Origin: a virus
Length of the DNA: 15,830 nucleotides
Direction: 5' to 3' (one strand)
IMG/VR virus record: IMGVR_UViG_3300045988_115612
Coordinates: 1 to 15,830 of that record
The position numbers were made by a program, and so were the translations under genes. Positions 1 through 15,830 of the stretch are shown here, one piece after another (position 1 is the stretch's first letter; every line of letters starts with the position of its first letter). The notes under the pieces are model-generated. The model was not told where the DNA came from. It saw nothing but the letters and a program-made list of their open reading frames with translations, and did not search any database.

Positions 1-19
1 GACTGTGCTCTTCCGATCT
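1..19. other. Sequencing-adapter remnant (Illumina-type ...GTGCTCTTCCGATCT), not biological
   Basis: gactgtgctcttccgatct at 1-19 ends in the canonical adapter 3' end CTCTTCCGATCT. Its exact reverse complement is at 15812-15830. Confidence 0.85.
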
Positions 20-335
20 CCCACGTTGACATAAAATAAAACGATATTTAGAACATTTCCCCAATCACTTTACGCGACAAACTAAAAATAGTGAACGCGT
101 ATAAAATATTTTAAAAATACGCTTGACATTTCTATGTGCGCGTGCTATTATATAATTACAGAAAGGAAATAATAAGGAGGAAATGAAAAAATGATTAAAA
201 ATTTAGATTATTACTGGGAAGCAATCGTGAACATGATGGATGATGATATCCGCGAACGCGTAGCGTTTGAATTAGCGCCGTGCACCAACGAAGAATTTTT
301 AAATCGTTACTTAGAGCTTGCACCGGATTTCCAGA
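20..335. repeat. Left inverted terminal repeat (316 bp perfect; degenerate extension to ~377)
   Basis: Block-by-block reverse complementation shows 1-335 identical to 15496-15830. Mismatches then occur at 336, 337, 341, 352, 364, 365, 368 and 369, and similarity is lost after ~377. Confidence 0.95.
123..151 (+). promoter_or_regulatory. Sigma-A-type promoter inside left ITR
   Basis: TTGACA (123-128), 17-nt spacer, TATTAT (146-151), preceded by TG at 143-144 (extended -10). AT-rich inverted repeat gcgtat...atacgc (97-122) lies directly upstream. SD and ORF follow about 25 nt downstream. Confidence 0.7.
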
Positions 336-358
336 CTGTTTTGGATTCTGAGTTTTAA
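191..358 (+). CDS. ITR-encoded 55-aa acidic hypothetical protein (left copy)
   Basis: ATG at 191 lies 10 nt after AAGGAGG (174-180). Translation: MIKNLDYYWEAIVNMMDDDIRERVAFELAPCTNEEFLNRYLELAPDFQTVLDSEF, TAA at 356-358. Below the ORF-track length cutoff. A second copy sits in the right ITR. Confidence 0.7.
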   Translation: MIKNLDYYWEAIVNMMDDDIRERVAFELAPCTNEEFLNRYLELAPDFQTVLDSEF

Positions 359-371
359 GGAGGGCAATGAA

Positions 372-605
372 ATGAAACAAAAAGAATATGATAGACTTGT
401 AAATCGGTTAGCACAGCTTAAAGCTATACAAGCAAAATATGCGACATTACTGGCATGGAAACCCAGTTATATAAATGACGAGCGTGAACGCAAGTACGAA
501 CAAGCAGTAGACCGCATAAACTCTGAAATATGGGGTGTCATGGATAAACTTGATAACTGCGTTAACGATGACGAGACAGATAGTTTTATACCACATTTTG
601 AATAA
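372..605 (+). CDS. Hypothetical 77-aa early protein (predicted helical)
   Basis: Internal ATG of track ORF 318..605, chosen because AAGGAGG (357-363) lies 8 nt upstream. Begins MKQKEYDRLVNRL. The upstream extension overlaps the ITR ORF. Confidence 0.65.
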   Translation: MKQKEYDRLVNRLAQLKAIQAKYATLLAWKPSYINDERERKYEQAVDRINSEIWGVMDKLDNCVNDDETDSFIPHFE

Positions 606-628
606 GGAGCGGAAACCCGCTCCTTATT
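601..628. terminator. Hairpin terminator at the convergence of plus- and minus-strand transcription
   Basis: 12-bp stem aataaggagcgg / ccgctccttatt with 4-nt loop aaac, followed by a T-run on the plus strand. Lies between the stop at 605 (+) and the stop at 630 (-). The U-tract is weaker in the minus direction. Confidence 0.75.
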
Positions 629-629
629 T

Positions 630-3884: not shown

Positions 3885-5195
3885 TTAAATTGGTAATTCT
3901 TTTAATAGCACATTTGTGCTTCTGATTAAACCACGAATAGAAGAATAAGCGTAGCTCTCATATTCTTGCGCTGTTGGAATGTTAATTGTGTCTAGTATGT
4001 AGACCGTAGCTGATGGATGACCGTTAAAATAATAAATCCGGTCTAGCTCATTGATAACACTATAGTTTGCATTAGTTTCAACACTCAGCCACGCTTCCCA
4101 TTCGTTGTCATTCGTAACTTTAAACGGAAAAGTAATAGACTGTCTCCAATTAGTCGGAAAGCTGGTTTTGTTTGGCTTTTCGCCCGAGTTAATGCTTTTT
4201 ACTCCAATTTTAACAAAACCGTGCTTGCTTCTGCCAATAGTTCGCACTCCCAAGCCGTTGCCCACATTATAGGTATCGTAATAAGTCGCGTTTTCGGTAT
4301 CCCACCACAGCGCATCTTTATTTTTTGTTTTGATTGCCTGACAAGTTTCTGTCATCACGGAATCAAACTCCTGCGCTGTCAAGTGTAGTTCTGCATCCAC
4401 CTGCATCACTTCGTCCAACGCTCTTGCATGTGTGATTGCGTCCCCACTCACCGGACTGTTCACACTTGCATCAAAAACGCCGTACATTTTGTAATAACTT
4501 TCAGCATCAAATGCACCCGCGCGGATATACAATGTTTTAAAATCGTCACAGTCCTTGTCAAAAGCTGTAAACCAGTTGTCAAACTGCCCGCAATTGATCG
4601 CTCGCACTCTTAAAATGTCGTATACATTATTGACAGTGTTTCCAACTCTGTCCCGGTATCCGGTTGTAGGATCAAAAATCCGGAAACCATCTTCATTTAC
4701 TTCGTCAATTTCCAGACGAAGCTTTTCCAGCTGCTCTTCCACCCATTCTTTCAGACGCTGAACAGCAAAGTCTGTATACTGTTCCAGATACGCTTTTGTC
4801 TCGTCGATCTTACCATTCAGCTGCGCAACGTCTTTTTCATGCGTCAGCTTTACATTGTCCACATAATACCTTAACTCTGTTATTAAATCTTCCAGCCGTT
4901 TTACGTCTTTGGTATGCTCCGCCCAGTAGTAAGCGTCTTGAGTGTCAATGTAACTGTGCAAGGTTTCTACGGTCTGAGCGAGAGTTTTCAAAAGCTCTGC
5001 TTTTAATTCTGCTATTTTCGCGTCTGTATAGTTCTGGTAATTTGTCTCTAAGTCAGTCAAAAACTGAATGATCTGATTGATGTTATAAGCAATCTTCTGC
5101 ATCATTTCCAGCTGACTGATAGACGCATCCCATTCAGACGGCAATGACAGATAGGCATTATTAAAGCATAGCTTTTCCGGTAACTTTTTATCCAC
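3885..5195 (-). CDS. Tail appendage / receptor-binding protein (gp12 position)
   Basis: 436 aa. GTG start 8 nt after GGAGG. N-terminal ~170 aa coiled coil followed by a globular C-terminal region. Located directly after the lower collar gene, as the appendage gene is in phi29-type phages. Call rests on position and architecture only. Confidence 0.5.
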   Translation of the reverse strand: MDKKLPEKLCFNNAYLSLPSEWDASISQLEMMQKIAYNINQIIQFLTDLETNYQNYTDAKIAELKAELLKTLAQTVETLHSYIDTQDAYYWAEHTKDVKRLEDLITELRYYVDNVKLTHEKDVAQLNGKIDETKAYLEQYTDFAVQRLKEWVEEQLEKLRLEIDEVNEDGFRIFDPTTGYRDRVGNTVNNVYDILRVRAINCGQFDNWFTAFDKDCDDFKTLYIRAGAFDAESYYKMYGVFDASVNSPVSGDAITHARALDEVMQVDAELHLTAQEFDSVMTETCQAIKTKNKDALWWDTENATYYDTYNVGNGLGVRTIGRSKHGFVKIGVKSINSGEKPNKTSFPTNWRQSITFPFKVTNDNEWEAWLSVETNANYSVINELDRIYYFNGHPSATVYILDTINIPTAQEYESYAYSSIRGLIRSTNVLLKELPI

Positions 5196-5210
5196 CTCTT
5201 TTACCTCCTT

Positions 5211-5900
5211 TTAGTAGATTTTTAAGAAAAGAGTACGGGAAACTGTGTCGGAAAATTGCCCCACAACATCCATAAGCGTTTCTCGATATTTTAAAATCAA
5301 TTCCGCTTGCGGAACATTGTATCCGCTTTCCTGAAAGTGTTCTGAATACACCTCTTTTCCGTTTGAAGATGTCGTTCCGTTCCCGCTTCCCTGATCTACT
5401 GTAATTGTAGTTGCATAATCCGCATTTGTCAAGCGGTTTTCCGGTGTATCATCAAAAATATTTTTATTGTTGCTTTCGCTTGTGCTTTTTCCGCTTGCGT
5501 TTGTTTCTCTGTCACCATTCCGTGCACTTTCCCTGCTGTAGCTTTTCAATTTGTCCAGTTCCAACAAGCTTGATTCATAAAGTTTGTTGTACACTGGCAG
5601 CCAGCGCGAAACATTTTGATTAAATCTGAGAATAAAATATTCCGGTGTTTCGTACTCGATTTCCCGCATCATATTGTCAACGCAGAACTGTTGGAAAAAG
5701 GCGTTTTTAAATTCTTCGTTGAAAAAATTGTTTGTGTTATACAGCATTTTAGACTGCGCTTTTTCGATTCTTTCCATGACACTCATTTCATCTTCCAGCC
5801 GGATAAAAGCGTATCTTTTTTCTTCCTTTGGATGCAGCGGGTTCACGTCCTGCGAATAATGGTATATGATATTTCGTAATGTCGTAGTGTGGTTACTCAT
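5211..5900 (-). CDS. Lower collar protein (gp11-like)
   Basis: 229 aa. Segment FFQQFCVDNMMREIEYETPEYFILRFNQNVSRWLPVYNKLYES matches the F..REIG.ET..F....MP.YN.L.ES pattern of lower collar proteins as I remember it. Start overlaps the portal stop (ATGA). Confidence 0.65.
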   Translation of the reverse strand: MSNHTTTLRNIIYHYSQDVNPLHPKEEKRYAFIRLEDEMSVMERIEKAQSKMLYNTNNFFNEEFKNAFFQQFCVDNMMREIEYETPEYFILRFNQNVSRWLPVYNKLYESSLLELDKLKSYSRESARNGDRETNASGKSTSESNNKNIFDDTPENRLTNADYATTITVDQGSGNGTTSSNGKEVYSEHFQESGYNVPQAELILKYRETLMDVVGQFSDTVSRTLFLKIY

Positions 5901-6871
5901 TTTTTTATATTCCCCTCCGCGTTATTCATAACGATTTCAGTTCCACCGCCTTTTGAATCCATGTTGCCGATTCCGGCGATTTCCTGCGTGCCTAAACTTA
6001 AGCGGTTACAATTAGGATTAAAGTCTACACTAATTCCAGTCAAGTCCGGGAACAGTCTTTTAATTTTTTTCAGCGCTTCTCTGCGCATAAACAGCCCGCC
6101 ATCCCGCAGTGCAAGAATGTGTTCTTCGTTTGCTTCTGCTTCGGACTCTACCAGACGTTCTTTTTTGTAAATGTTAAGATTGTTATAACCTAGACGTGTA
6201 AGGTATTCGCTCCAGATGCAATTCTTTTCCTTTTCCAATTGTTCCAAAATGCACGGAACAGAAAAATCTAACACGCCCTTTGTATCAGCAGAAAATCCGT
6301 CTGTATCGTCCACCAAAACAAAAGGTTTCCCGTCCTCCGCTTCGTTGATCGCGTGTTTTGCGCTGTTTACGTTATCCTTATTTACAAAAATTCCTTTCGG
6401 TTTCATCTGCAATCGTGTGTTCACGTCTTTCGCCTTTTCAATCATAGTGAATTTTTTAGCGAAATAGTAAATTTCTGGCATGAACGGTCTAAACGTCTGA
6501 TCGTTAAAAATGATAGCGCTGTCTTTTTCGGTTGCCCTGTGGTGGTATCCGCTGGCGGTATTGATATAGCGGGTTGTCGGTATGTTATAAATGTTAAAGC
6601 TGCCCGCTTTTGCACAAGGTAAACACAGATACCCCATCACCTCATCCTTAAAAAAACAAACTGCGCCGTTAAAAATTAGTGCCTGTTCCAGTGCGCGGGC
6701 GCTCACTGTGTCTGGCAATCCTGACCATGTGTAGCGATTGATTGCTAACAAATACAGCTGATTTACAAAGTGATCGAACGTCACGCGCTCATCAAACTTT
6801 CGAACGATCTTTCCATCATAACCGACACCGCACAATCCTAGCGGGTCGGTCGAAAAACCAGTTCTTCCCAT
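5897..6871 (-). CDS. Portal / upper collar connector (phi29 gp10-like)
   Basis: 324 aa. [31 protein letters not shown] parallels phi29 gp10 [48 protein letters not shown] parallels KKERMVTDEVSSNDEQI. AAGGAGG 8 nt upstream. Confidence 0.85.
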   Translation of the reverse strand: [324 protein letters not shown]

Positions 6872-8612: not shown

Positions 8613-9899
8613 TTAGCCTGTGATCGTCACAGCCTTTGTTGTCTGTACATTCGTCTGCCCTGCTACAACTGCTTTCAGCGTCAATGTTTTGGCTGTTTCG
8701 TTGGGGCTGACTTCGATTGTTGCGCTCTTACTATCACTTGCAACTATCCTTGTGCTGGTGGCTTCCGCTCCCTCTAACGAGAAGATAACGCCGCCGTTTA
8801 CAGGTGTGGTAGCTGCTGTGTATTTACTCTGTGCGCCTTTTGCGATCGACGCTTCTCCGGTGATCGTCACAGCTGTGTACGTGCTGACAGCTTCCGTAGT
8901 AAGGGCAACCGCGTTATGAAAAGGACTGGTAAAATAAATCTGCCATACGTGTAACCAGTAATTCCAGTACAGCTTTTCTCCGTTAAAAAATTCGGATGTT
9001 TCAAGCAACTGGTCGTAGATATTCATCCATTCATCATCCGCAACAATTGCCAAAATTTCCGGATGTCCGGGAATTTCTGGAATTACGGTGATTCTACCTA
9101 AAATCTGCGCTTCGTCCATATGAAACGCATACGCAAGCGCCCGCACTGACGTGACAGCGTCCGCTTTTGGTGTAATAAATACCCGCTGGCTTTCCCTAGC
9201 AGTTGTATTTAAAACACCTGCTGCATTGTAATTTTCAGATGGAAACAGTAAATTGTTTGACACAATACGCATGGTAGTCAAAAAATCCTGTGCGGTGTCT
9301 GCGTCAACAGGGTCGACCGTGTGTACAAGCTTTACAAAACCGTTATCAAGCGCGGATGTGATCGCACCCATTGCGTAAAGCATTTCAGATACTTCATTTC
9401 CGGTGTACATGGAATCAATCACACGGTCAACGAAATTTCCAAGTCCCTGTGCGCTGTAAAATGCACTACGCAGCATTTCCCGGTTCACAGTCTTTTTGAA
9501 AAACTCTTCCCGGTTTCGGTTCATAAAAGCAACCGCGATATCGGGCTTTTCCTGCTTTAACATTGCCCACGGGTCAGTATCAGAACAAAAAGAATGTGCG
9601 GCTGCGATCTTTACCCAAACGGACTCAATCGTTTCCCCGTATTCCAGCATACCTCTTTTTGCAAAAGCGAACGGGGAAGTGAAATACATTTTGTCGATTT
9701 TCTGCAGCGCCCAGACGTTTACAAGCTGGTTCATGAATCTGTTCATGATTGGCTGGTACTGCATCATGACCTGCCCAAACTCTTTAATGTTTGTGTTTTT
9801 AACTTCGGGGAGTAAGCCCTCCCATTCTGTGCCTTTTAAGCTGTCTTTAAAGCTCTGTAATGCTAAAGGCACATTTTTCAAAACTCCTTTTACTGCCAT
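8613..9899 (-). CDS. Major capsid protein with C-terminal Ig-like (BIG2-type) domain (phi29 gp8-like architecture)
   Basis: 428 aa. Follows a small acidic scaffold gene. AAGGAGG 6 nt upstream and its own terminator. The C-terminal ~85 aa (TITGEASIAKGAQSKYTA...TLTLKAVVAGQTNVQTTKAVTITG) looks like a bacterial Ig-like group 2 domain, as in phi29 gp8. Confidence 0.8.
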   Translation of the reverse strand: MAVKGVLKNVPLALQSFKDSLKGTEWEGLLPEVKNTNIKEFGQVMMQYQPIMNRFMNQLVNVWALQKIDKMYFTSPFAFAKRGMLEYGETIESVWVKIAAAHSFCSDTDPWAMLKQEKPDIAVAFMNRNREEFFKKTVNREMLRSAFYSAQGLGNFVDRVIDSMYTGNEVSEMLYAMGAITSALDNGFVKLVHTVDPVDADTAQDFLTTMRIVSNNLLFPSENYNAAGVLNTTARESQRVFITPKADAVTSVRALAYAFHMDEAQILGRITVIPEIPGHPEILAIVADDEWMNIYDQLLETSEFFNGEKLYWNYWLHVWQIYFTSPFHNAVALTTEAVSTYTAVTITGEASIAKGAQSKYTAATTPVNGGVIFSLEGAEATSTRIVASDSKSATIEVSPNETAKTLTLKAVVAGQTNVQTTKAVTITG

Positions 9900-9911: not shown

Positions 9912-10169
9912 TTACAGATCGAGAAAATCTTCTGTTTTGATTTCCTCTTTTTCCTCCACTTCTTCTTTGTCCTTTTCTTTTTCCGAACCGGACAGAAAAG
10001 CGTCTGCATACTGTTTTTTCACGTCTGCTACTTCTGTTTCCAGACGGTCATTTTCGTCTGCAATTTCCGCAATTAAATTTAAAATTGCGGATTCATCCAG
10101 CGCCCCCTCTTCTGGTGCATCAATTCGCGCGATCATGCGCGCTTTCGAAATTAAATCATCCCGTTTCAT
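9912..10169 (-). CDS. Scaffolding protein (gp7-like)
   Basis: Internal ATG at 10169 (MKRDDLISKARMIA...) preceded by GGGAGAAAGGA. 85 aa, helical, very acidic C-terminus (EKEKDKEEVEEKEEIKTEDFLDL). Immediately upstream of the capsid gene. The track's longer N-terminus runs through the promoter leader. Confidence 0.65.
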   Translation of the reverse strand: MKRDDLISKARMIARIDAPEEGALDESAILNLIAEIADENDRLETEVADVKKQYADAFLSGSEKEKDKEEVEEKEEIKTEDFLDL

Positions 10170-10293
10170 TTTTTTCCTTTCTCCCGTGTGCGGTTTTATA
10201 AGTAAGGGAAAACACGCGCATAATCCGATGCGCCACACCCGCAAGCCGTTTCACACGGGGATTTCCTGCTTGTGCTGTAAGTTCTCCCTCTAT
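10170..10293 (-). other. ~124-nt structured untranslated RNA (late-operon leader; prohead-RNA candidate)
   Basis: No credible ORF. On the minus-strand RNA, 8-bp helix CCCGUGUG (10259-10252) pairs with CACACGGG (10190-10183) and extends by CGG/CCG. It encloses hairpin GCGCAU-cggauu-AUGCGC (10233-10216). Lies directly downstream of a perfect consensus promoter. Confidence 0.4.
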
Positions 10294-10299
10294 GGTTTC

Positions 10300-10328
10300 A
10301 TTATAGCTTGCTTTTGTATCAATGTCAA
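10300..10328 (-). promoter_or_regulatory. Perfect consensus sigma-A promoter (TTGACA-17-TATAAT)
   Basis: Minus strand reads TTGACA (10328-10323), 17 nt ttgatacaaaagcaagc, TATAAT (10305-10300). The -35 box contains the ATPase TGA stop (10327-10325). Confidence 0.8.
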
Positions 10329-11374
10329 CCCCTAATTCCCAAAAAATCCATACCAATATTTTTACATTCTTGAGATTCGAAACGGAAATTTCCAACATTG
10401 AACTGCTTTCTACATATCGACACTTGCACGGAAATTGTTCCTGTTAAGCATGTATTTTCGTCATGATCTTTTGTCGAAATTGCGAAAAGTCTATGAAAAT
10501 TTCTATCTGCTTTTAAAGAAATATAATACCTTCCACTTTGTAACTCCCATAAACCATAAAAATTACCATTATGTTTTATTGTTAAAAGATACCGCGCACC
10601 AGCAAGACTTTGTTTTTCAATAAATTGTACATTATCCAGCAAAAAAATATTATCAATACTATAATCAAAATACGTAGAATCGGAAAAAGCTCGATAAAAT
10701 CCGCTTTGTTTTTTTTCCTCCGCTACATATTTATTTCTATAAACCTCCATCACCCACCCATGTCCTTTCATAAAATGGATTCCAGCTTTCCATCTTTTAT
10801 GAATCCCTAAAGCTACAAAATACGGATTCAGCAATGAAACCATGTTACTAGCTAAAAAATATGTAAGTTTTCGTGTTAATTGTTCATATCCTCTTCCAAT
10901 TGCATCATTTATTGCAAGAAATTTGTTGATCTCGTCTGCGCAATATTCCTCAGCTTCGCTTTGAAATTCATCTAAAAAAATATTGTCTGCATCATTAAAA
11001 AAAGTAGATATTCTTTTTACCTTATCAATCATACTAAGTGCAATAACGTATCCGCAAGATATTTCAAATTCTTCAGTTTTTATGAAAACCTCTGCAAACT
11101 TACCCGAACCGGATGAAATAGAATATAAATCGGCGCTAGGAAATTTATTTTTTATATCCGCCCAAAATGCCGGGATATAACTGTTTAGTTCGTCCTTTTT
11201 TCTAACTAGACAGATAAATTTTTTACTTTTATGCAAAAATTCATTGATTAAATATTCTTTTACGGCAAAAGATTTTCCTCCCCCTTTTGTGCCAGTTATG
11301 ATATAAATGTCTGGTGTATTCCCGTCAAGGTCTTTTGTTTTTAAAATATTGTCTAGTCTGTAATGCTTCTCCAT
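10325..11374 (-). CDS. DNA packaging (encapsidation) ATPase, phi29 gp16-like
   Basis: 349 aa. Walker A GTKGGGKS, Walker B IFLDEF. ASNMVSLLNPYF parallels gp16 LSNAVSVVNPYF. DNVQFIEKQS parallels DNQVFIEKRS. AAGGAGG 4 nt upstream. Confidence 0.9.
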   Translation of the reverse strand: MEKHYRLDNILKTKDLDGNTPDIYIITGTKGGGKSFAVKEYLINEFLHKSKKFICLVRKKDELNSYIPAFWADIKNKFPSADLYSISSGSGKFAEVFIKTEEFEISCGYVIALSMIDKVKRISTFFNDADNIFLDEFQSEAEEYCADEINKFLAINDAIGRGYEQLTRKLTYFLASNMVSLLNPYFVALGIHKRWKAGIHFMKGHGWVMEVYRNKYVAEEKKQSGFYRAFSDSTYFDYSIDNIFLLDNVQFIEKQSLAGARYLLTIKHNGNFYGLWELQSGRYYISLKADRNFHRLFAISTKDHDENTCLTGTISVQVSICRKQFNVGNFRFESQECKNIGMDFLGIRG

Positions 11375-12128: not shown

Positions 12129-12157
12129 ATAGTATCACATATTGAGCGAAACGTCAA
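12129..12157 (-). promoter_or_regulatory. Candidate sigma-A promoter for the p6-like/SSB genes
   Basis: Minus strand reads TTGACG (12157-12152), 17 nt, TG-a-TACTAT (12134-12129). A perfect TATAAT lies 3 nt further on but at 20-nt spacing. The -35 contains the polymerase TGA stop. Confidence 0.5.
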
Positions 12158-14004
12158 CATCTTTTTGCACGTAAAGTATAAAAATCTTCTATTAGCACCA
12201 TACCACCACTTATATATTTTGGTTTTAATTTTCCGCCCACTTTTAAGCCGATCTTAAAATCCGTTATCGGATGCGTTGCCAAAAATAATTTTTTTGATTT
12301 TTCGGGCATCCCCGCGCATTTTATTTCCCAGTGTCCGGATACCTTTTTCCCGTCCTCTTTTTGCACAAACTCTGCATAAGTCTTTTGTCTTATAAATATA
12401 GCGCTAGACCAATCACTTTCCCGCTTCCAGCACAATAGATCTGTAGCGTGTTCTTTTATCATTTTCACTGGTTTCCCATCGTCCAGCATATGTATAGAAT
12501 CTGTATCACTGTATACAAAATTGTCATAATTCGCTTGCGCGTGCGTTATAGTAAAATATCGCGCATATGCTGTCACCGCTGCCCCTGCTGCAATGTATAA
12601 CGTGTCTTTTTCATGCTCCGGGTGCAATTCAAAACCTATGGAGTCTGTTTCCGGGTCGATGAATGGCTCACGGTAAGAACTATTGTCATTTATAGCAAGC
12701 CGACCGTATAAGTTATTCAGGAACAATTTTGCTTCCGTGCGTTCTCCCTTGTCTTTGGTGGTCATTTTAATTTTCATGTAGTGGTTTATATAAGTGTCAA
12801 ACAGACCTATTGCGCCATGAAAATAGCAGCCATCTAGAATATCTAAGTCATACACTTCATAATGCTCTAATAAAAGAAGATAGTCGGTCATAAAAAGAAT
12901 TAGCTCTGGTTTTGCTTCCTCTGTTTGTCCCTCTTTGTTTGTAAAATATCTGTAATATTTTCCGCGATAATAGATATCAGATGTTTCCAGCCATTGCGTA
13001 GAGTTATATCTATAATCTCCTTTTATTTGTACTGTTGGCAAGTAACCGTCCTTTAACTTAAACCGACAACGCAGCCGCACATAAAACGGATAAACGTTTG
13101 TCTCTAAGCATTTATAGGGGATTTTTTTTTCAAAAAATATTGGCTTGCCTGTTGGATAATAGTTACCACTTTTACTGTGCATAACACTAGGATATAAAGA
13201 ATTAACATCAAACGTCATGCCGTTCTGCTTAATGTGTTTTCTTTGTTTGTATTTGTAATAGCAATAACCACCTTTATAAGCTTTTCTTATATATTCATCC
13301 ACATTATCACTCCCTCGATCGTATTTTATCAACAATATGTCTTTTAAGTTCGGAAAAGCTGTCTTGAAGTCCATAGCATCAAATTTATTTTTGAATTCAT
13401 CCATACAGCACGAACCTATAGTTAATTTATCATGTCCGCTTTTTATCATAACTTCCAGTGCTTCCTTTAGCACATAGATATCGTTAATTATATAGGCGTA
13501 TTCCTCTGGTGTTATTTCACAGTTTGCGTGACGCAATCCTATATATTCCATTTCCAGTTTTCGATGCTGCGTATTAAATGCAGAACCAATTTGTGCAAGT
13601 GTCATAGGCATAAGTTTTACACTGTCCCTAAACTCTATCACTGTGTCAAATTTCGGTTTGACTGTGACGGTATACCATTTATTTGTATCTGATATTAAGG
13701 CTTTGAACTCTTTTGCGTTCATGTCTTTATTGCGTGCATTATTCCATGTATAACCGTTCTTTAATAGCCAATACACAATAAAAGCTCCATCAAAACGCAG
13801 ATTGTGAAAATAGCAGAGAACGTTTTTGTTCAAGTTAAAAATATCGTTCAAAAAATCTTCTATGTTACCGCGCAAGTGCGGCTGCTCTGTAAATAATTCT
13901 ATCCATGCAGCGCTCCAAACTTCTGTCGATGTCTGCCCGGCATATACAGTTGTTTCAAAATCTGCTGCTATTATAACGGGTTTTTTCGCTGTTTTTTTTG
14001 ACAT
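12154..14004 (-). CDS. Protein-primed family B DNA polymerase (phi29 gp2-like)
   Basis: 616 aa. ExoI DFETT, ExoII HNLRFDGAFIVYWL, ExoIII YIINDIYVLKEAL, motif A DVNSLYPSVM, motif B KLFLNNLYGRLA, motif C YSDTDSIH, RQKTYAE. All are near-identical to the phi29 polymerase motifs. Confidence 0.95.
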   Translation of the reverse strand: MSKKTAKKPVIIAADFETTVYAGQTSTEVWSAAWIELFTEQPHLRGNIEDFLNDIFNLNKNVLCYFHNLRFDGAFIVYWLLKNGYTWNNARNKDMNAKEFKALISDTNKWYTVTVKPKFDTVIEFRDSVKLMPMTLAQIGSAFNTQHRKLEMEYIGLRHANCEITPEEYAYIINDIYVLKEALEVMIKSGHDKLTIGSCCMDEFKNKFDAMDFKTAFPNLKDILLIKYDRGSDNVDEYIRKAYKGGYCYYKYKQRKHIKQNGMTFDVNSLYPSVMHSKSGNYYPTGKPIFFEKKIPYKCLETNVYPFYVRLRCRFKLKDGYLPTVQIKGDYRYNSTQWLETSDIYYRGKYYRYFTNKEGQTEEAKPELILFMTDYLLLLEHYEVYDLDILDGCYFHGAIGLFDTYINHYMKIKMTTKDKGERTEAKLFLNNLYGRLAINDNSSYREPFIDPETDSIGFELHPEHEKDTLYIAAGAAVTAYARYFTITHAQANYDNFVYSDTDSIHMLDDGKPVKMIKEHATDLLCWKRESDWSSAIFIRQKTYAEFVQKEDGKKVSGHWEIKCAGMPEKSKKLFLATHPITDFKIGLKVGGKLKPKYISGGMVLIEDFYTLRAKRC

Positions 14005-14018
14005 TGTGAAACCTCTCG

Positions 14019-14040
14019 AAATGTTTCACGTGAAACATTT
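14019..14040. repeat. Perfect 22-nt palindrome at the terminal-protein/polymerase junction
   Basis: aaatgtttcac|gtgaaacattt with a CACGTG core. Overlaps the terminal-protein stop codon (14039-14041). A third copy of the heptamer (gtgaaac, 14006-14012) lies between the polymerase SD and its ATG. Confidence 0.9.
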
Positions 14041-14665
14041 AATATTCGCCCCAGCCGTTATCATAGTCGAATGAATCTAAAAATTCTTTCTGCTGCTCCC
14101 GGGAAAGTCCTAGATTGTCTGATAACTCAGATAAAAATTCAGGCACAATGGACTGACCTCCATTTTTTTCTGCATCGTAACTTTCATGGATGGTTAGCCA
14201 AGGAACAGACGATAATGCTTCCGCTGTTGCTTCTTTTCCGTTCTTCTTTAAACTATTTTCTAACCATTGCCGACACATACGCTCCGCTACCGGAAAGTAT
14301 GTATAAGTAGTGTTTATAAAATTTTCTATTATGATATCTGCACTAGAGGGATAATCTGCTATGACTTCTCTTTTCTTTTTTGCTTTTCGTCTTTTTGACT
14401 TGTAAGCTACCCGATCTCTTTTCTTTTTTTCTTTTCGTCTTTTTGACTTATAACCGCTGTGTGTTATTAAAGATTCAGACGTTTTTTGTATTACGTCCGG
14501 CGTTATTTTTTTCAACCTCTGAACATCCGCTTTTGTTGGCTGTTGCTTTAATTTTGGAATATCTATAGATATTGCATAACCTTGTGCAAGCAATTTATTC
14601 ACTTGCTTTTCAATTCTTTTCAGTTCTTGCGCGTATACTTTGGCATACCTATTTTTTCTCGCCAT
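14039..14665 (-). CDS. Putative terminal protein (replication primer)
   Basis: ATG at 14665, 9 nt after AAGGAGG; 208 aa. Immediately upstream of the protein-primed polymerase, as phi29 gene 3 is. Basic N-terminal half with duplicated YKSKRRKxKKKR; acidic C-terminal half rich in S/T/Y. Call rests on position and architecture, with no recognisable sequence similarity. Confidence 0.55.
   Translation of the reverse strand: MARKNRYAKVYAQELKRIEKQVNKLLAQGYAISIDIPKLKQQPTKADVQRLKKITPDVIQKTSESLITHSGYKSKRRKEKKKRDRVAYKSKRRKAKKKREVIADYPSSADIIIENFINTTYTYFPVAERMCRQWLENSLKKNGKEATAEALSSVPWLTIHESYDAEKNGGQSIVPEFLSELSDNLGLSREQQKEFLDSFDYDNGWGEY
14367..14455. repeat. 48-nt tandem duplication (2 copies) inside the terminal-protein candidate
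   Basis: Unit starting at 14367 versus unit starting at 14415: 38 of 41 aligned positions identical (tctcttttcttttttgcttttcgtctttttgacttgtaagc versus tctcttttctttttttcttttcgtctttttgacttataacc). Encodes YKSKRRKEKKKRDRVA / YKSKRRKAKKKREVIA. Confidence 0.9.
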
Positions 14666-14696
14666 ATGAAAAAACCTCCTTTTATAATGTAGTTCT

Positions 14697-14725
14697 ATTA
14701 TAACATATTTTTTATAAAAATACAA
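14697..14725 (-). promoter_or_regulatory. Promoter for the terminal-protein/polymerase operon (extended -10)
   Basis: Minus strand reads TTGTAT (14725-14720), 17 nt, TGt-TATAAT (14705-14697). Lies immediately downstream of a terminator and about 30 nt upstream of the terminal-protein start. Confidence 0.65.
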
Positions 14726-15216: not shown

Positions 15217-15459
15217 TTAATGCGCATCAGTTACGGTTACAATTGTATCTAACACGCTGTCCATATTCACTGCGCTATATGTAAAATCCACAAATAACGG
15301 TATATCATCCACAGTGTTTAAAACCCATGCAGTACCTTTTCCATCTTCACAGAGTATGCTATCAACCTCCCCGTTTCCGTCCCACAATTCACCTAGATAA
15401 TAATCCTCACCTTTGACTATTTCGCGCTGCTTCCCTTTAATATAACTCAATGTTTTCAT
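15217..15459 (-). CDS. Hypothetical 80-aa early protein
   Basis: Internal ATG at 15459, 8 nt after AAGGAGG; MKTLSYIKGKQREIV... The track's 98-aa version extends into the ITR ORF in another frame. Confidence 0.65.
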   Translation of the reverse strand: MKTLSYIKGKQREIVKGEDYYLGELWDGNGEVDSILCEDGKGTAWVLNTVDDIPLFVDFTYSAVNMDSVLDTIVTVTDAH

Positions 15460-15472
15460 TTTCTTATCCTCC

Positions 15473-15640
15473 TTAAAATTCAGAATCCAGAACGTTCTGG
15501 AAATCCGGTGCAAGCTCTAAGTAACGATTTAAAAATTCTTCGTTGGTGCACGGCGCTAATTCAAACGCTACGCGTTCGCGGATATCATCATCCATCATGT
15601 TCACGATTGCTTCCCAGTAATAATCTAAATTTTTAATCAT
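15473..15640 (-). CDS. ITR-encoded 55-aa acidic hypothetical protein (right copy)
   Basis: Mirror of 191..358. Identical except codon 49 (AAC Asn versus ACT Thr) and two synonymous changes (codons 51 and 54). Same SD and promoter. Confidence 0.7.
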   Translation of the reverse strand: MIKNLDYYWEAIVNMMDDDIRERVAFELAPCTNEEFLNRYLELAPDFQNVLDSEF

Positions 15641-15811
15641 TTTTTCATTTCCTCCTTATTATTTCCTTTCTGTAATTATATAATAGCACGCGCACATAGA
15701 AATGTCAAGCGTATTTTTAAAATATTTTATACGCGTTCACTATTTTTAGTTTGTCGCGTAAAGTGATTGGGGAAATGTTCTAAATATCGTTTTATTTTAT
15801 GTCAACGTGGG
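15496..15811. repeat. Right inverted terminal repeat
   Basis: Exact reverse complement of 20-335. Confidence 0.95.
15680..15708 (-). promoter_or_regulatory. Sigma-A-type promoter inside right ITR
   Basis: Exact mirror of 123-151: TTGACA (15708-15703), 17 nt, TGc-TATTAT (to 15680). Confidence 0.7.
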
Positions 15812-15830
15812 AGATCGGAAGAGCACAGTC
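15812..15830. other. Sequencing-adapter remnant, not biological
   Basis: agatcggaagagcacagtc resembles the Illumina AGATCGGAAGAGCAC... adapter and mirrors 1-19. Confidence 0.85.

What the first reader, a model, noticed from the sequence alone, without database searches (positions are those of the whole stretch)
10170..10328. Perfect consensus promoter plus ~124-nt structured untranslated RNA next to the packaging ATPase: prohead-RNA candidate or regulatory leader
This is the only sizeable non-coding gap in the genome. It starts with an exact TTGACA-17-TATAAT on the minus strand and then runs ~124 nt before the scaffold start. The transcript can form several structures. An 8-bp closing helix, CCCGUGUG (10259-10252) with CACACGGG (10190-10183), extends by CGG/CCG across an AAA bulge. 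An internal hairpin is GCGCAU-CGGAUU-AUGCGC (10233-10216). AGGGAG near the 5' end can pair with UUCCCU. The hairpin loop GGAUU is complementary to AAUCC (10263-10259), just 5' of the closing helix, giving a possible pseudoknot or intermolecular kissing contact. The phi29 packaging motor needs a ~120-nt functional prohead RNA (pRNA) that multimerises through loop-loop pairs. To my knowledge pRNAs have been described only for Bacillus phages. A constitutive-strength promoter driving a ~120-nt folded RNA beside the gp16-like ATPase is where I would look for one. There are three caveats. No terminator separates this RNA from the scaffold gene, so it may simply be a 5' UTR controlling late-operon expression. 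The closing helix abuts the GGGAGAAAGGA ribosome-binding region. The 5-nt loop complementarity could easily be chance.
Basis: partly seen in the sequence, partly recalled or inferred. Interest (0 to 1): 0.7.

Follow-up and report, generated by a model that had tools for sequence, protein, structure and literature searches.

The report
Prohead-RNA-like RNA in gut phage
Between the packaging ATPase and scaffold genes of this small phi29-like gut phage lies a ~96-nt folded RNA with the architecture of the phi29 packaging RNA, so an RNA part known only from Bacillus phage motors may be widespread.

Summary
The sequence features are real. TTGACA-17-TATAAT is the only 12/12 promoter match in the window, and a 124-nt leader lies in the largest internal non-coding gap. 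The RNA folds as a three-way junction: helix A from the 5'/3' ends, an arm C-5' bulge-E hairpin, and hairpin D. This is the element order of phi29 prohead RNA (pRNA). In 19 variants of this clade, six pairs show compensatory changes, two of them in the bulge/D-loop pairing (AAUCC:GGAUU versus AUCCC:GGGAU). Distant relatives (ATPase 35-40% identical, human gut) carry a 111-119-nt RNA of the same architecture beside the ATPase gene, usually with its own terminator. They include the cultured Clostridium phages CS229P1 and HM2. Each clade has its own bulge/loop complementarity (4.3 bp matched versus about 2.6 permuted; 0 of 20,000). Rfam's pRNA model finds none of them, and clade models do not cross-detect. 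In this genome no terminator separates the RNA from the scaffold gene. It is therefore made as the 5' leader of the late mRNA, and a cis-regulatory role cannot be excluded. A packaging function is inferred, not shown.

The parts
10323..10328 (-). -35 hexamer TTGACA; overlaps the ATPase stop codon TGA (10327-10325)
   Evidence: invariant in 19 clade variants
10300..10305 (-). -10 hexamer TATAAT, 17-nt spacer; predicted start about 10293
   Evidence: invariant with 14 distinct spacers. Start inferred from spacing, not measured
10198..10293 (-). Core of the structured RNA (96 nt): three-way junction with the pRNA element order
   Evidence: MFE and centroid identical; 96.6% of cells paired, 6 pairs with compensatory change, 0/500 shuffles; model R2 109.9 bits (by construction)
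10281..10290 (-). Helix A, 5' strand GAGGGAGAAC; a possible AUA (10293-10291):UAU (10200-10198) extension lies across an ACU bulge
   Evidence: 7 invariant pairs, 2 one-sided changes that keep pairing
10204..10213 (-). Helix A, 3' strand GUUUUCCCUU
10265..10275 (-). Helix C, 5' strand GCACAAGCAGG; has a 2x2 internal loop here and is a continuous 11 bp in several relatives
   Evidence: 4 pairs with compensatory changes (C:G to U:A, G:C to A:U, C:G to A:U)
10235..10245 (-). Helix C, 3' strand CUUGCGGGUGU
10259..10264 (-). 5'-side bulge AAAUCC between helices C and E, equivalent to the CE / right-hand loop of pRNA; AAUCC is complementary to the D loop
   Evidence: unpaired probability 1.0; covaries with the D loop
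10246..10258 (-). Hairpin E: CCGU-GUGAA-ACGG
   Evidence: 3 invariant pairs; the fourth is U:A or U:G and is broken in 6 sequences
10216..10233 (-). Hairpin D: GCGCAU-CGGAUU-AUGCGC; loop 10227-10222 is equivalent to the D / left-hand loop of pRNA
   Evidence: 100% paired; C:G to U:G and U:A to U:G changes; loop unpaired probability 1.0
10170..10197 (-). 3' tail joining the RNA to the scaffold gene: AU-rich single strand, small hairpin CCG-CACA-CGG, ribosome-binding region GGGAGAAAGGA. No terminator and no second promoter
10325..11374 (-). gp16-type DNA packaging ATPase (349 aa), immediately upstream
   Evidence: PF05894 8e-33 over nearly full length; phrog_2150 4e-90
9912..10169 (-). Probable scaffold protein (85 aa, acidic), first gene downstream, followed by the major capsid protein gene (8613-9899)
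   Evidence: position and composition only, with no family hit; capsid protein PF25622 4e-80
5897..6871 (-). Connector (gp10 homologue), the expected docking partner of a pRNA
   Evidence: PF05352 1.5e-40; its N-terminus lacks the basic RKR motif of phi29 gp10

Best explanation
The gap encodes a prohead-RNA-like (pRNA-like) RNA.

Shown:
- A conserved sigma-70-type promoter abutting the ATPase stop codon is placed to start transcription at the foot of helix A.
- The first ~96 nt fold into a three-way junction: helix A from the two ends, an arm made of helix C, a 6-nt 5' bulge and hairpin E, and a second hairpin D.
- The bulge (AAUCC) and the D loop (GGAUU) stay single-stranded in the fold and are complementary to each other. 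This complementarity is maintained by compensating changes.

Inferred by analogy with phi29:
- Helix A presents the gp16-type ATPase, so the RNA bridges prohead and motor during packaging of the protein-primed linear genome.

In this clade no terminator follows. The RNA is therefore synthesised as the 5' leader of the scaffold/capsid mRNA. It must either be cut off in the AU-rich tail after helix A or act while attached. This step is speculative.
For: 1. Genome context. The window is a complete phi29-like genome with a type-B protein-primed DNA polymerase, SSB, p6-like protein, gp16 ATPase, phi29-type capsid protein, gp9 tail knob and gp10 connector, plus 377-nt inverted terminal repeats.

2. 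Fold. The MFE equals the centroid and is a three-way junction. The bulge, D loop and E loop are unpaired with probability 1.0. The element order matches the Rfam RF00044 consensus and the phi29 fold.

3. Covariation in 19 variants of this clade. 96.6% of cells are paired and 6 pairs carry double changes, 4 in helix C and 2 in the bulge/D-loop pairing. 0 of 500 shuffles reach the observed score, and slid controls fall to 34-58% paired.

4. Strand. The many G:U pairs and the energies (-36.1 versus -26.3 kcal/mol for the opposite strand) point to a minus-strand RNA.

5. Distant relatives (ATPase 35-40% identical).
- 57 of 74 loci have a 111-119-nt element starting 0-50 nt after the ATPase stop (0-5 nt in most clades), followed by an intrinsic terminator.
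- RNAalifold recovers helices A, C, E and D, with 19 of 25 pairs compensated.
- Model R1 finds 66 elements in 75 loci, and one in cultured Clostridium phage CS229P1 at E = 1e-17.

6. Linkage to the ATPase. The RNA stays beside the ATPase gene whatever the neighbour is: a scaffold gene, a convergent polymerase gene or the genome end.

7. Bulge/D-loop complementarity. It differs by clade: UAGCA:UGCUA, CUGUA:UACAG, AGGC:GCCU, GGAA:UUCC, ACCA:UGGU, UAAACA:UGUUUA, AACC:GGUU, UUGCC:GGCAA, GUAGUC:GACUAC. Matched pairs average 4.3 Watson-Crick bp against 2.5-2.7 when permuted (0 of 20,000). Segment boundaries for 18 clades came from the R1 alignment, which does not model this pairing.

8. Short forms of 85-96 nt like this one have their own promoter placed at the foot of helix A, and are followed by a U-run (L128) or a terminator hairpin (Clostridium phage HM2).
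Against: - No experiment or transcript data exist, so the packaging role is pure analogy.
- RF00044 does not match anywhere in the window at E <= 10, although it finds phi29 at 145 bits.
- Model R1, built from distant relatives, does not find this element even with filters off. R2, built from this clade, finds none of the others. Common descent of this short form with the main family, or with Bacillus pRNA, is therefore not demonstrated.
- Helix A is 10-13 bp, against about 25 bp in phi29, where that helix carries the ATPase.
- There is no terminator, so no discrete small RNA is predicted from sequence.
- The connector N-terminus lacks the basic RKR motif that binds pRNA in phi29 (the phi29 role is from my own knowledge).
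- The bulge/loop pairing could be an intramolecular pseudoknot. Sequence cannot tell.
- The within-clade covariation may reflect few evolutionary events, because two sequence types differ as blocks.
Confidence: 0.6

Rival explanations
1. It is a cis-acting 5' leader of the late (scaffold/capsid) operon. The folded 5' domain stabilises the mRNA against 5' exonuclease or binds a phage protein such as scaffold or capsid. The downstream segment CACACGGG can alternatively pair with CCCGUGUG and so tune ribosome access. It plays no part in the packaging motor.
For: - In this genome, and in two other clades (L093, MT835904), the RNA runs straight into the ribosome-binding site of the scaffold gene with no terminator or second promoter.
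- The Shine-Dalgarno region is only partly open, with unpaired probability 0.59-0.75.
Against: - In most related phages an RNA of the same architecture is a stand-alone gene ending in a terminator. It is often convergent with the polymerase gene or at the genome end, with no gene downstream to regulate.
- The alternative helix has no compensatory change. Two natural variants weaken it while leaving helix E intact.
- The alternative helix costs 9.6 kcal/mol.
- A simple stabiliser does not need a three-way junction with covarying loop complementarity.
- No Rfam cis-regulatory family matches.
Confidence: 0.2
2. It is a structured phage small RNA with an intramolecular pseudoknot and a different trans function, for example control of replication or transcription, or interference with a host system. 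It sits beside the ATPase gene only for reasons of expression.
For: - The structure and the bulge/loop pairing are well supported, but nothing in the sequence says the pairing is intermolecular.
- No sequence homology to known pRNA is detectable.
- In the main family the long C/D linker of 8-10 nt could let hairpin D fold back onto the bulge.
Against: - The linkage to the gp16-type ATPase gene persists through several genome rearrangements.
- The size (111-119 nt in the main family), the element order and the position of the complementary bulge and loop all match pRNA point for point.
- By established knowledge of phi29, gp16 cannot dock on the connector without pRNA, and these phages have full-length gp16 homologues.
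Confidence: 0.12
3. It is a chance fold in a spacer that exists only to hold the promoter and ribosome-binding site.
For: Judged on this one sequence, the fold is only modestly better than shuffles (z = -2.5). 4 of 40 shuffled genomes contain a descriptor match as good.
Against: - Compensatory changes occur in helix C and in the bulge/loop pairing.
- Sequence is strongly conserved despite indels that rule out coding.
- Analogous elements occupy the same place in many distant relatives.
Confidence: 0.03

Closest known systems
Prohead/packaging RNA (pRNA) of Bacillus phages phi29, M2/Nf, B103, SF5 and GA-1 (Rfam RF00044 Phage_pRNA)
   Same: - The host genome is of phi29 type, with a gp16 ATPase and a gp10 connector.
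- Helix A is formed by the 5' and 3' ends.
- The three-way junction has the same element order: helix C, 5' bulge, hairpin E, return strand of C, hairpin D.
- The bulge and the D-hairpin loop share 4-6 nt of complementarity that covaries between lineages.
- It has its own strong sigma-70-type promoter.
- The main gut family is 111-119 nt long, against the 117-120-nt functional domain of phi29 pRNA.
   Different: - There is no detectable sequence or covariance-model similarity.
- Here the core is 96 nt and helix A is 10-13 bp.
- Junction strands are 5, 1 and 2 nt, rather than the roughly 1, 3 and 0 nt seen in the RF00044 consensus line.
- It is encoded next to the ATPase gene, not at the genome's left end.
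- It has no terminator and is fused to the late mRNA.
- The likely hosts are gut Clostridia, judged from the cultured relatives, not Bacillus.
- Function is untested.
The 'GGUAUCU...AGAUAUA' RNA next to the ATPase gene of human-gut phi29-like phages
   Same: - It lies immediately downstream of the gp16-type ATPase gene.
- It has the same A / C-bulge-E / D architecture.
- It has clade-specific bulge/D-loop complementarity.
   Different: - R1 does not detect the window element.
- That family is 111-119 nt long with a helix A of about 25 bp containing bulges, an 8-10-nt C/D linker and a 3-4-bp helix D.
- Its members are followed by an intrinsic terminator, and in most no promoter separates them from the ATPase stop.
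Short promoter-driven forms in Clostridium phage HM2 (LT600745, about 6100-6190) and metagenomic contig L128
   Same: - They are 85-96 nt long with a short helix A.
- A sigma-70-type promoter is placed to start at the foot of helix A (TTGACA-17-TATAAT in L128, TTGACC-17-TAAGAT in HM2). In HM2 it abuts the ATPase stop, as here.
- A 6-nt bulge is complementary to the D loop: GUAGUC:GACUAC in HM2 and UUGCC:GGCAA in L128.
   Different: - Both are followed by a U-run or terminator, and L128 then has a separate promoter for the scaffold gene.
- There is no detectable sequence similarity.

Membership tests
Rfam RF00044 Phage_pRNA | Match to the family covariance model at or above the gathering score (100 bits) | tested here: not met
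   No RF00044 match anywhere in the window at E <= 10, nor in 12 related loci. Positive control: phi29 scores 145.4 bits, E = 1e-35.
pRNA as a functional class | Encoded by a phage with a gp16-type ATPase, a gp10 connector and protein-primed replication | tested here: met
   PF05894, PF05352, PF03175 and PF25622; PHROGs; inverted terminal repeats.
pRNA as a functional class | Secondary structure: helix A from the 5'/3' ends; three-way junction; arm of C, 5' bulge and E hairpin; D hairpin | tested here: met
   MFE equals centroid; covariation; same dot-bracket topology as the phi29 fold and the RF00044 consensus.
pRNA as a functional class | Complementary right-hand (CE bulge) and left-hand (D) loops that covary | tested here: met
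   AAUCC:GGAUU versus AUCCC:GGGAU, with 2 doubly changed pairs. Across clades, 4.3 versus about 2.6 bp, 0 of 20,000 permutations.
pRNA as a functional class | Functional domain of about 117-120 nt with a long helix A that carries the ATPase | tested here: not met
   The core is 96 nt (10293-10198) and helix A is 10 bp, or 13 bp with a bulge. The main gut family does have 111-119 nt.
pRNA as a functional class | Discrete small transcript with its own promoter and its own 3' end | tested here: inconclusive
   The promoter is present and conserved. No terminator precedes the scaffold gene. Processing cannot be judged from sequence. Relatives do have terminators.
pRNA as a functional class | Forms intermolecular rings, binds the prohead connector and is required for DNA packaging | not testable with these tools
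   This needs native gels, prohead RNA extraction and RNase-sensitive packaging assays.
   No hit at the locus with default filters or with filters off.
Cis-regulatory leader (riboswitch, thermometer or protein-binding operator) | A known aptamer family, or mutually exclusive helices that gate a terminator or the ribosome-binding site | tested here: inconclusive
   No Rfam cis-regulatory match. One conserved alternative helix touches GGGAG, but it shows no covariation and is 9.6 kcal/mol worse.

The most novel reading that the evidence does not exclude
RNA-dependent packaging motors are not a peculiarity of Bacillus phages. They may be the rule among phi29-like phages of gut Firmicutes, using a pRNA family too diverged for existing models to see. 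In this clade the pRNA is made as the 5' end of the scaffold/capsid mRNA. This would couple the supply of the motor RNA to the synthesis of the prohead proteins, either by cleavage or by acting while still attached.
Probability: 0.5. Interest if true: 0.9.

Novelty: new variant of a known kind. Interest (0 to 1): 0.8.

Why it matters
pRNA is the only known RNA that is an essential structural part of a viral DNA-packaging motor. It is also a workhorse of RNA nanotechnology. The papers I could read describe it as unique to phi29 and related Bacillus phages (PMC11476376, 2024). They still find new ones only in Bacillus phages (PMC12670572, 2025).

How other phi29-like phages dock their gp16-type ATPase has been an open question. 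A large, diverse family of pRNA-like RNAs in human-gut phages would make that question testable. Two members are in cultured Clostridium phages, CS229P1 and HM2.

The family would also:
- supply dozens of natural three-way junctions and loop pairs;
- give real depth for covariation and 3D modelling;
- bear on whether pRNA is ancestral to this phage lineage.

The leader arrangement seen here would be a new way of expressing such an RNA.

Tried and rejected
- **Rfam.** Rfam 15 at E <= 10 on the whole window gave nothing at the locus.
- **tRNA/tmRNA.** None found.
- **Megablast.** The genome has no match in 50,697 phage records.
Rejected: no covariation, competes with helix E, and 9.6 kcal/mol worse.
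- **Coding potential of the gap.** The mechanical ORF 10156-10398 is rejected. The promoter-to-ATG segment varies between 162 and 168 nt among close relatives, in steps that are not multiples of three.
- **First automatic descriptor scans.** They were confounded by terminators and short D stems. I replaced them with segmentation from the covariance-model alignment.
- **Single-sequence significance.** The element is the top locus, but 4 of 40 shuffled genomes do as well. The sequence alone proves little.
- **Cross-detection between clades.** R1 (28 distant sequences) does not find the window, L093, L128, HM2 or phi29. R2 (this clade) finds only itself.
- **Promoter in the main family.** I found no convincing promoter between the ATPase stop and GGUAUCU. 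Those RNAs are probably co-transcribed with the ATPase gene.
- **Connector motif.** The phi29-like basic N-terminal motif on the connector is absent.

Full report
**What the window is**

The 15,830-bp window is a complete linear genome of a phi29-like podophage. Nearly all genes lie on the minus strand:
- a probable terminal protein (14039-14725);
- a type-B DNA polymerase (12154-14004);
- a p6-like protein and an SSB;
- a gp16-type packaging ATPase (10325-11374);
- then an 85-aa acidic protein taken as the scaffold (9912-10169);
- a phi29-type major capsid protein, a gp9 tail knob and a gp10 connector.

The ends are 377-nt inverted repeats, 98% identical. The genome has no nucleotide-level match among 50,697 phage records. 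Its ATPase is at most 35% identical to those of deposited phages, the best being Clostridium phages and human faecal contigs. Close relatives (ATPase about 90% identical) come from human-gut metagenomes.

**Checking the observation**

- TTGACA (10328-10323), 17 nt, TATAAT (10305-10300) is the only 12/12 promoter match in the window.
- The -35 overlaps the ATPase stop codon.
- In 19 distinct variants from relatives both hexamers are invariant while the spacer has 14 versions. That is what a working promoter looks like.
- A start about 7 nt after the -10 (about 10293) lies 124 nt before the scaffold ATG at 10169.
- The 155-nt gap is the largest internal non-coding stretch.
- Its length varies among relatives in steps that are not multiples of three, so it does not code.
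- No terminator lies between it and the scaffold gene.

**The fold**

The minimum-energy and centroid structures of the transcript agree. They form a three-way junction:
- helix A: GAGGGAGAAC (10290-10281) with GUUUUCCCUU (10213-10204);
- helix C: 10275-10265 with 10245-10235;
- a 6-nt bulge AAAUCC (10264-10259) on the 5' side of hairpin E;
- hairpin E: CCGU-GUGAA-ACGG (10258-10246);
- hairpin D: GCGCAU-CGGAUU-AUGCGC (10233-10216).

The bulge, the D loop and the E loop are unpaired with probability 1.0 in the ensemble.

Forcing it gives -33.3 against -42.9 kcal/mol.

The same DNA read on the plus strand folds 10 kcal/mol worse. The model contains many G:U pairs. The signal is therefore that of a minus-strand RNA.

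**Is it more than chance?**

On this sequence alone, barely. The z-score is -2.5. A descriptor for the architecture ranks the element first in the genome, but 4 of 40 shuffled genomes score as high.

The case rests on comparison. In the 19 variants of this clade (alignment A2):
- the junction plus the bulge/loop pairing has 96.6% of cells paired;
- six pairs are changed on both sides;
- 0 of 500 shuffles reach the observed covariation;
- sliding the partners by one to three columns drops pairing to 34-58%.

Four of the doubly changed pairs are in helix C. The other two are in the bulge/D-loop pairing. Nine to ten sequences have AAUCC with GGAUU and the rest have AUCCC with GGGAU. The two types differ partly as blocks, so the number of independent events is small.

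**Distant relatives**

The ATPase has no relatives between 90% and 40% identity. A profile search of IMG/VR gave 554 loci, of which the best 80 were fetched.
- In 57 of the 74 distant loci, a 111-119-nt element beginning GGUAUCU and ending AGAUAUA starts 0-50 nt after the ATPase stop (0-5 nt in most clades). An intrinsic terminator follows it.
- A plain MAFFT alignment of 28 representatives gives an RNAalifold consensus with helices A, C, E and D. Nineteen of 25 pairs show compensatory changes.
- Model R1, built from that alignment, finds 66 elements in 75 loci.
- These include a group with its own TTGACA promoter abutting the ATPase stop at a genome end, and a group where the RNA lies on the opposite strand.
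- R1 also finds one at 10552-10666 of the cultured Clostridium phage CS229P1, in an unannotated gap after the 'DNA packaging protein' gene (E = 1e-17).

The neighbour on the other side varies. It can be a scaffold gene, a convergent polymerase gene or the end of the genome. The RNA goes with the ATPase gene, not with any downstream gene.

Shorter forms like the window's also exist.
- In contig L128 (ATPase 40% identical), a TTGACA-17-TATAAT promoter drives a ~96-nt RNA. A U-run follows, then a separate promoter for the scaffold gene.
- In Clostridium phage HM2 a promoter abutting the ATPase stop drives an ~87-nt RNA followed by a terminator.
- Two further clades (L093 and MT835904) have the window's arrangement, with the RNA running into the scaffold gene without a terminator.

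**The hallmark**

In phi29 pRNA the bulge 5' of hairpin E (the CE or right-hand loop) pairs with the D (left-hand) loop of a neighbouring molecule. These loops covary between phages. This is established knowledge, restated in PMC12670572.

I took the bulge and D-loop segments from the R1 alignment, which knows nothing of this pairing. Each clade has its own complementary pair:
- UAGCA:UGCUA, CUGUA:UACAG, AGGC:GCCU, GACA:UGUC;
- UGGAA:UUCCA, ACCA:UGGU, UAAACA:UGUUUA, UGCA:UGCA;
- AACC:GGUU, the very pair of phi29.

Hand-parsed short forms add UUGCC:GGCAA, GCAA:UUGC, GGGA:UCCC and UUCC:GGAA, and HM2 contributes GUAGUC:GACUAC by eye. Matched bulge/loop pairs average 4.3 Watson-Crick bp, against 2.5-2.7 when loops are permuted among clades. 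This held in 0 of 20,000 permutations, with or without the hand-parsed cases.

**Comparison with the known family**

The Rfam consensus line for RF00044 reads helix A, helix C, a 9-nt 5' bulge, hairpin E, the return of C, three junction nucleotides, hairpin D, and the return of A. The window RNA, the gut family and the phi29 control all fold to that same topology. The main gut family also matches the 117-120-nt size.

Membership by model fails, however.
- RF00044 scores phi29 at 145 bits but finds nothing in the window or in 12 gut loci.
- R1 does not find phi29, GA-1 or the window.
- A model of the window clade finds only itself.

So I can say what the element works like. I cannot show common descent with Bacillus pRNA or with the longer gut form.

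The window form also differs in detail:
- helix A is 10-13 bp rather than about 25 bp;
- one nucleotide lies between C and D rather than 8-10 (gut family) or 3 (phi29);
- helix D is 6 bp.

The connector lacks the basic N-terminal RKR motif that binds pRNA in phi29 (the phi29 fact is from my own knowledge).

**Mechanism and its status**

Shown:
- a conserved promoter placed to start at the foot of helix A;
- a conserved, covarying three-way junction;
- two exposed, mutually complementary, covarying single-stranded segments;
- persistent linkage to a full-length gp16-type ATPase gene.

Inferred by analogy:
- presentation of the ATPase by helix A.

Speculative: in this clade the RNA is released from the late mRNA by cleavage in the AU-rich tail (10201-10194), or it works while attached.

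The main rival is a purely cis-acting leader. It fits the local layout, but not the many relatives in which the same kind of RNA is a terminated, stand-alone gene.

**Literature**

A 2024 review states that pRNA is, to current knowledge, unique to phi29 and related Bacillus phages (PMC11476376). A 2025 Infernal survey seeded with phi29, GA-1 and DLc1 found 12 more. The ones it names are from phages whose names (Goe, BSP, Bfsp) match Bacillus and Cytobacillus phage records (PMC12670572). A paper on Clostridium perfringens podophages mentions pRNA only as the partner of the ATPase (PMC3362512). I found no description of these gut elements, but the library lacks most subscription journals.

**Verdict**

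This is a real structured RNA, best read as a diverged, short, leader-fused variant of prohead RNA. It belongs to a previously unrecognised and abundant set of pRNA-like RNAs in gut phi29-like phages. Function is untested.

Noticed in passing
window 1-377 and 15454-15830: Inverted terminal repeats of 377 nt, 98% identical, far longer than the 6-bp repeat of phi29. Each carries an outward-to-inward TTGACA-17-TATTAT promoter with a TG extension (123-151 on the plus strand, 15708-15680 on the minus strand) and a 55-aa ORF.
   Followed up: partly
window 14024-14035; also L001-L013, L052, L070, L071, L073 (four copies), L085, L093, L130, L134 and others: The perfect palindrome (G)TTTCACGTGAAA(C) is conserved across clades whose ATPases are only about 35% identical. 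In the window it sits in the 34-nt gap between the polymerase and terminal-protein genes. In relatives it often lies next to the RNA's terminator or between the ATPase stop and the RNA. It looks like an operator for a shared regulator.
   Followed up: partly
L057 8745-8812 (-): A type II hammerhead ribozyme match above the Rfam gathering score (39.5 versus 37 bits, E = 1.5e-4) in a related gut phi29-like contig.
   Followed up: no
window 600-629: A strong bidirectional terminator-like hairpin (13 bp, GAATAAGGAGCGG-AAAC-CCGCTCCTTATTT) lies between the short plus-strand unit at the left end and the end of the minus-strand late operon. It accounts for several weak Rfam sRNA hits there.
   Followed up: no
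L064, L067, L068, L075, L080, L087, about 5181-5301 (-): In one clade the pRNA-like element lies next to the ATPase gene but on the opposite strand (R1 E = 7e-4 to 0.017 in five loci, 1.1 in L080). Its bulge and D loop still match (UAGC:GCUA).
   Followed up: partly
main-family loci, e.g. L069 5058, L118 5044: The main-family RNAs begin within 0-50 nt of the ATPase stop (0-5 nt in most clades) with no convincing promoter in between, and have near-invariant ends GGUAUCU...AGAUAUA. This suggests co-transcription with the ATPase gene and possibly a processing site.
   Followed up: partly
window 5897-6871 (-): The connector N-terminus (MGRTGFSTDPLGL...) lacks the basic MARKR motif of phi29 gp10 that binds pRNA. 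If the RNA docks on this connector, the contact must differ.
   Followed up: no
window 10246-10258 and relatives: The E-hairpin loop in this clade is mostly a GNRA-like tetraloop closed by U-A (GUGA, GUAA, GCGA). The main family has UUGAAA, UUGGAA or UUGACU, which recalls UUGAGU in the phi29 E loop.
   Followed up: no
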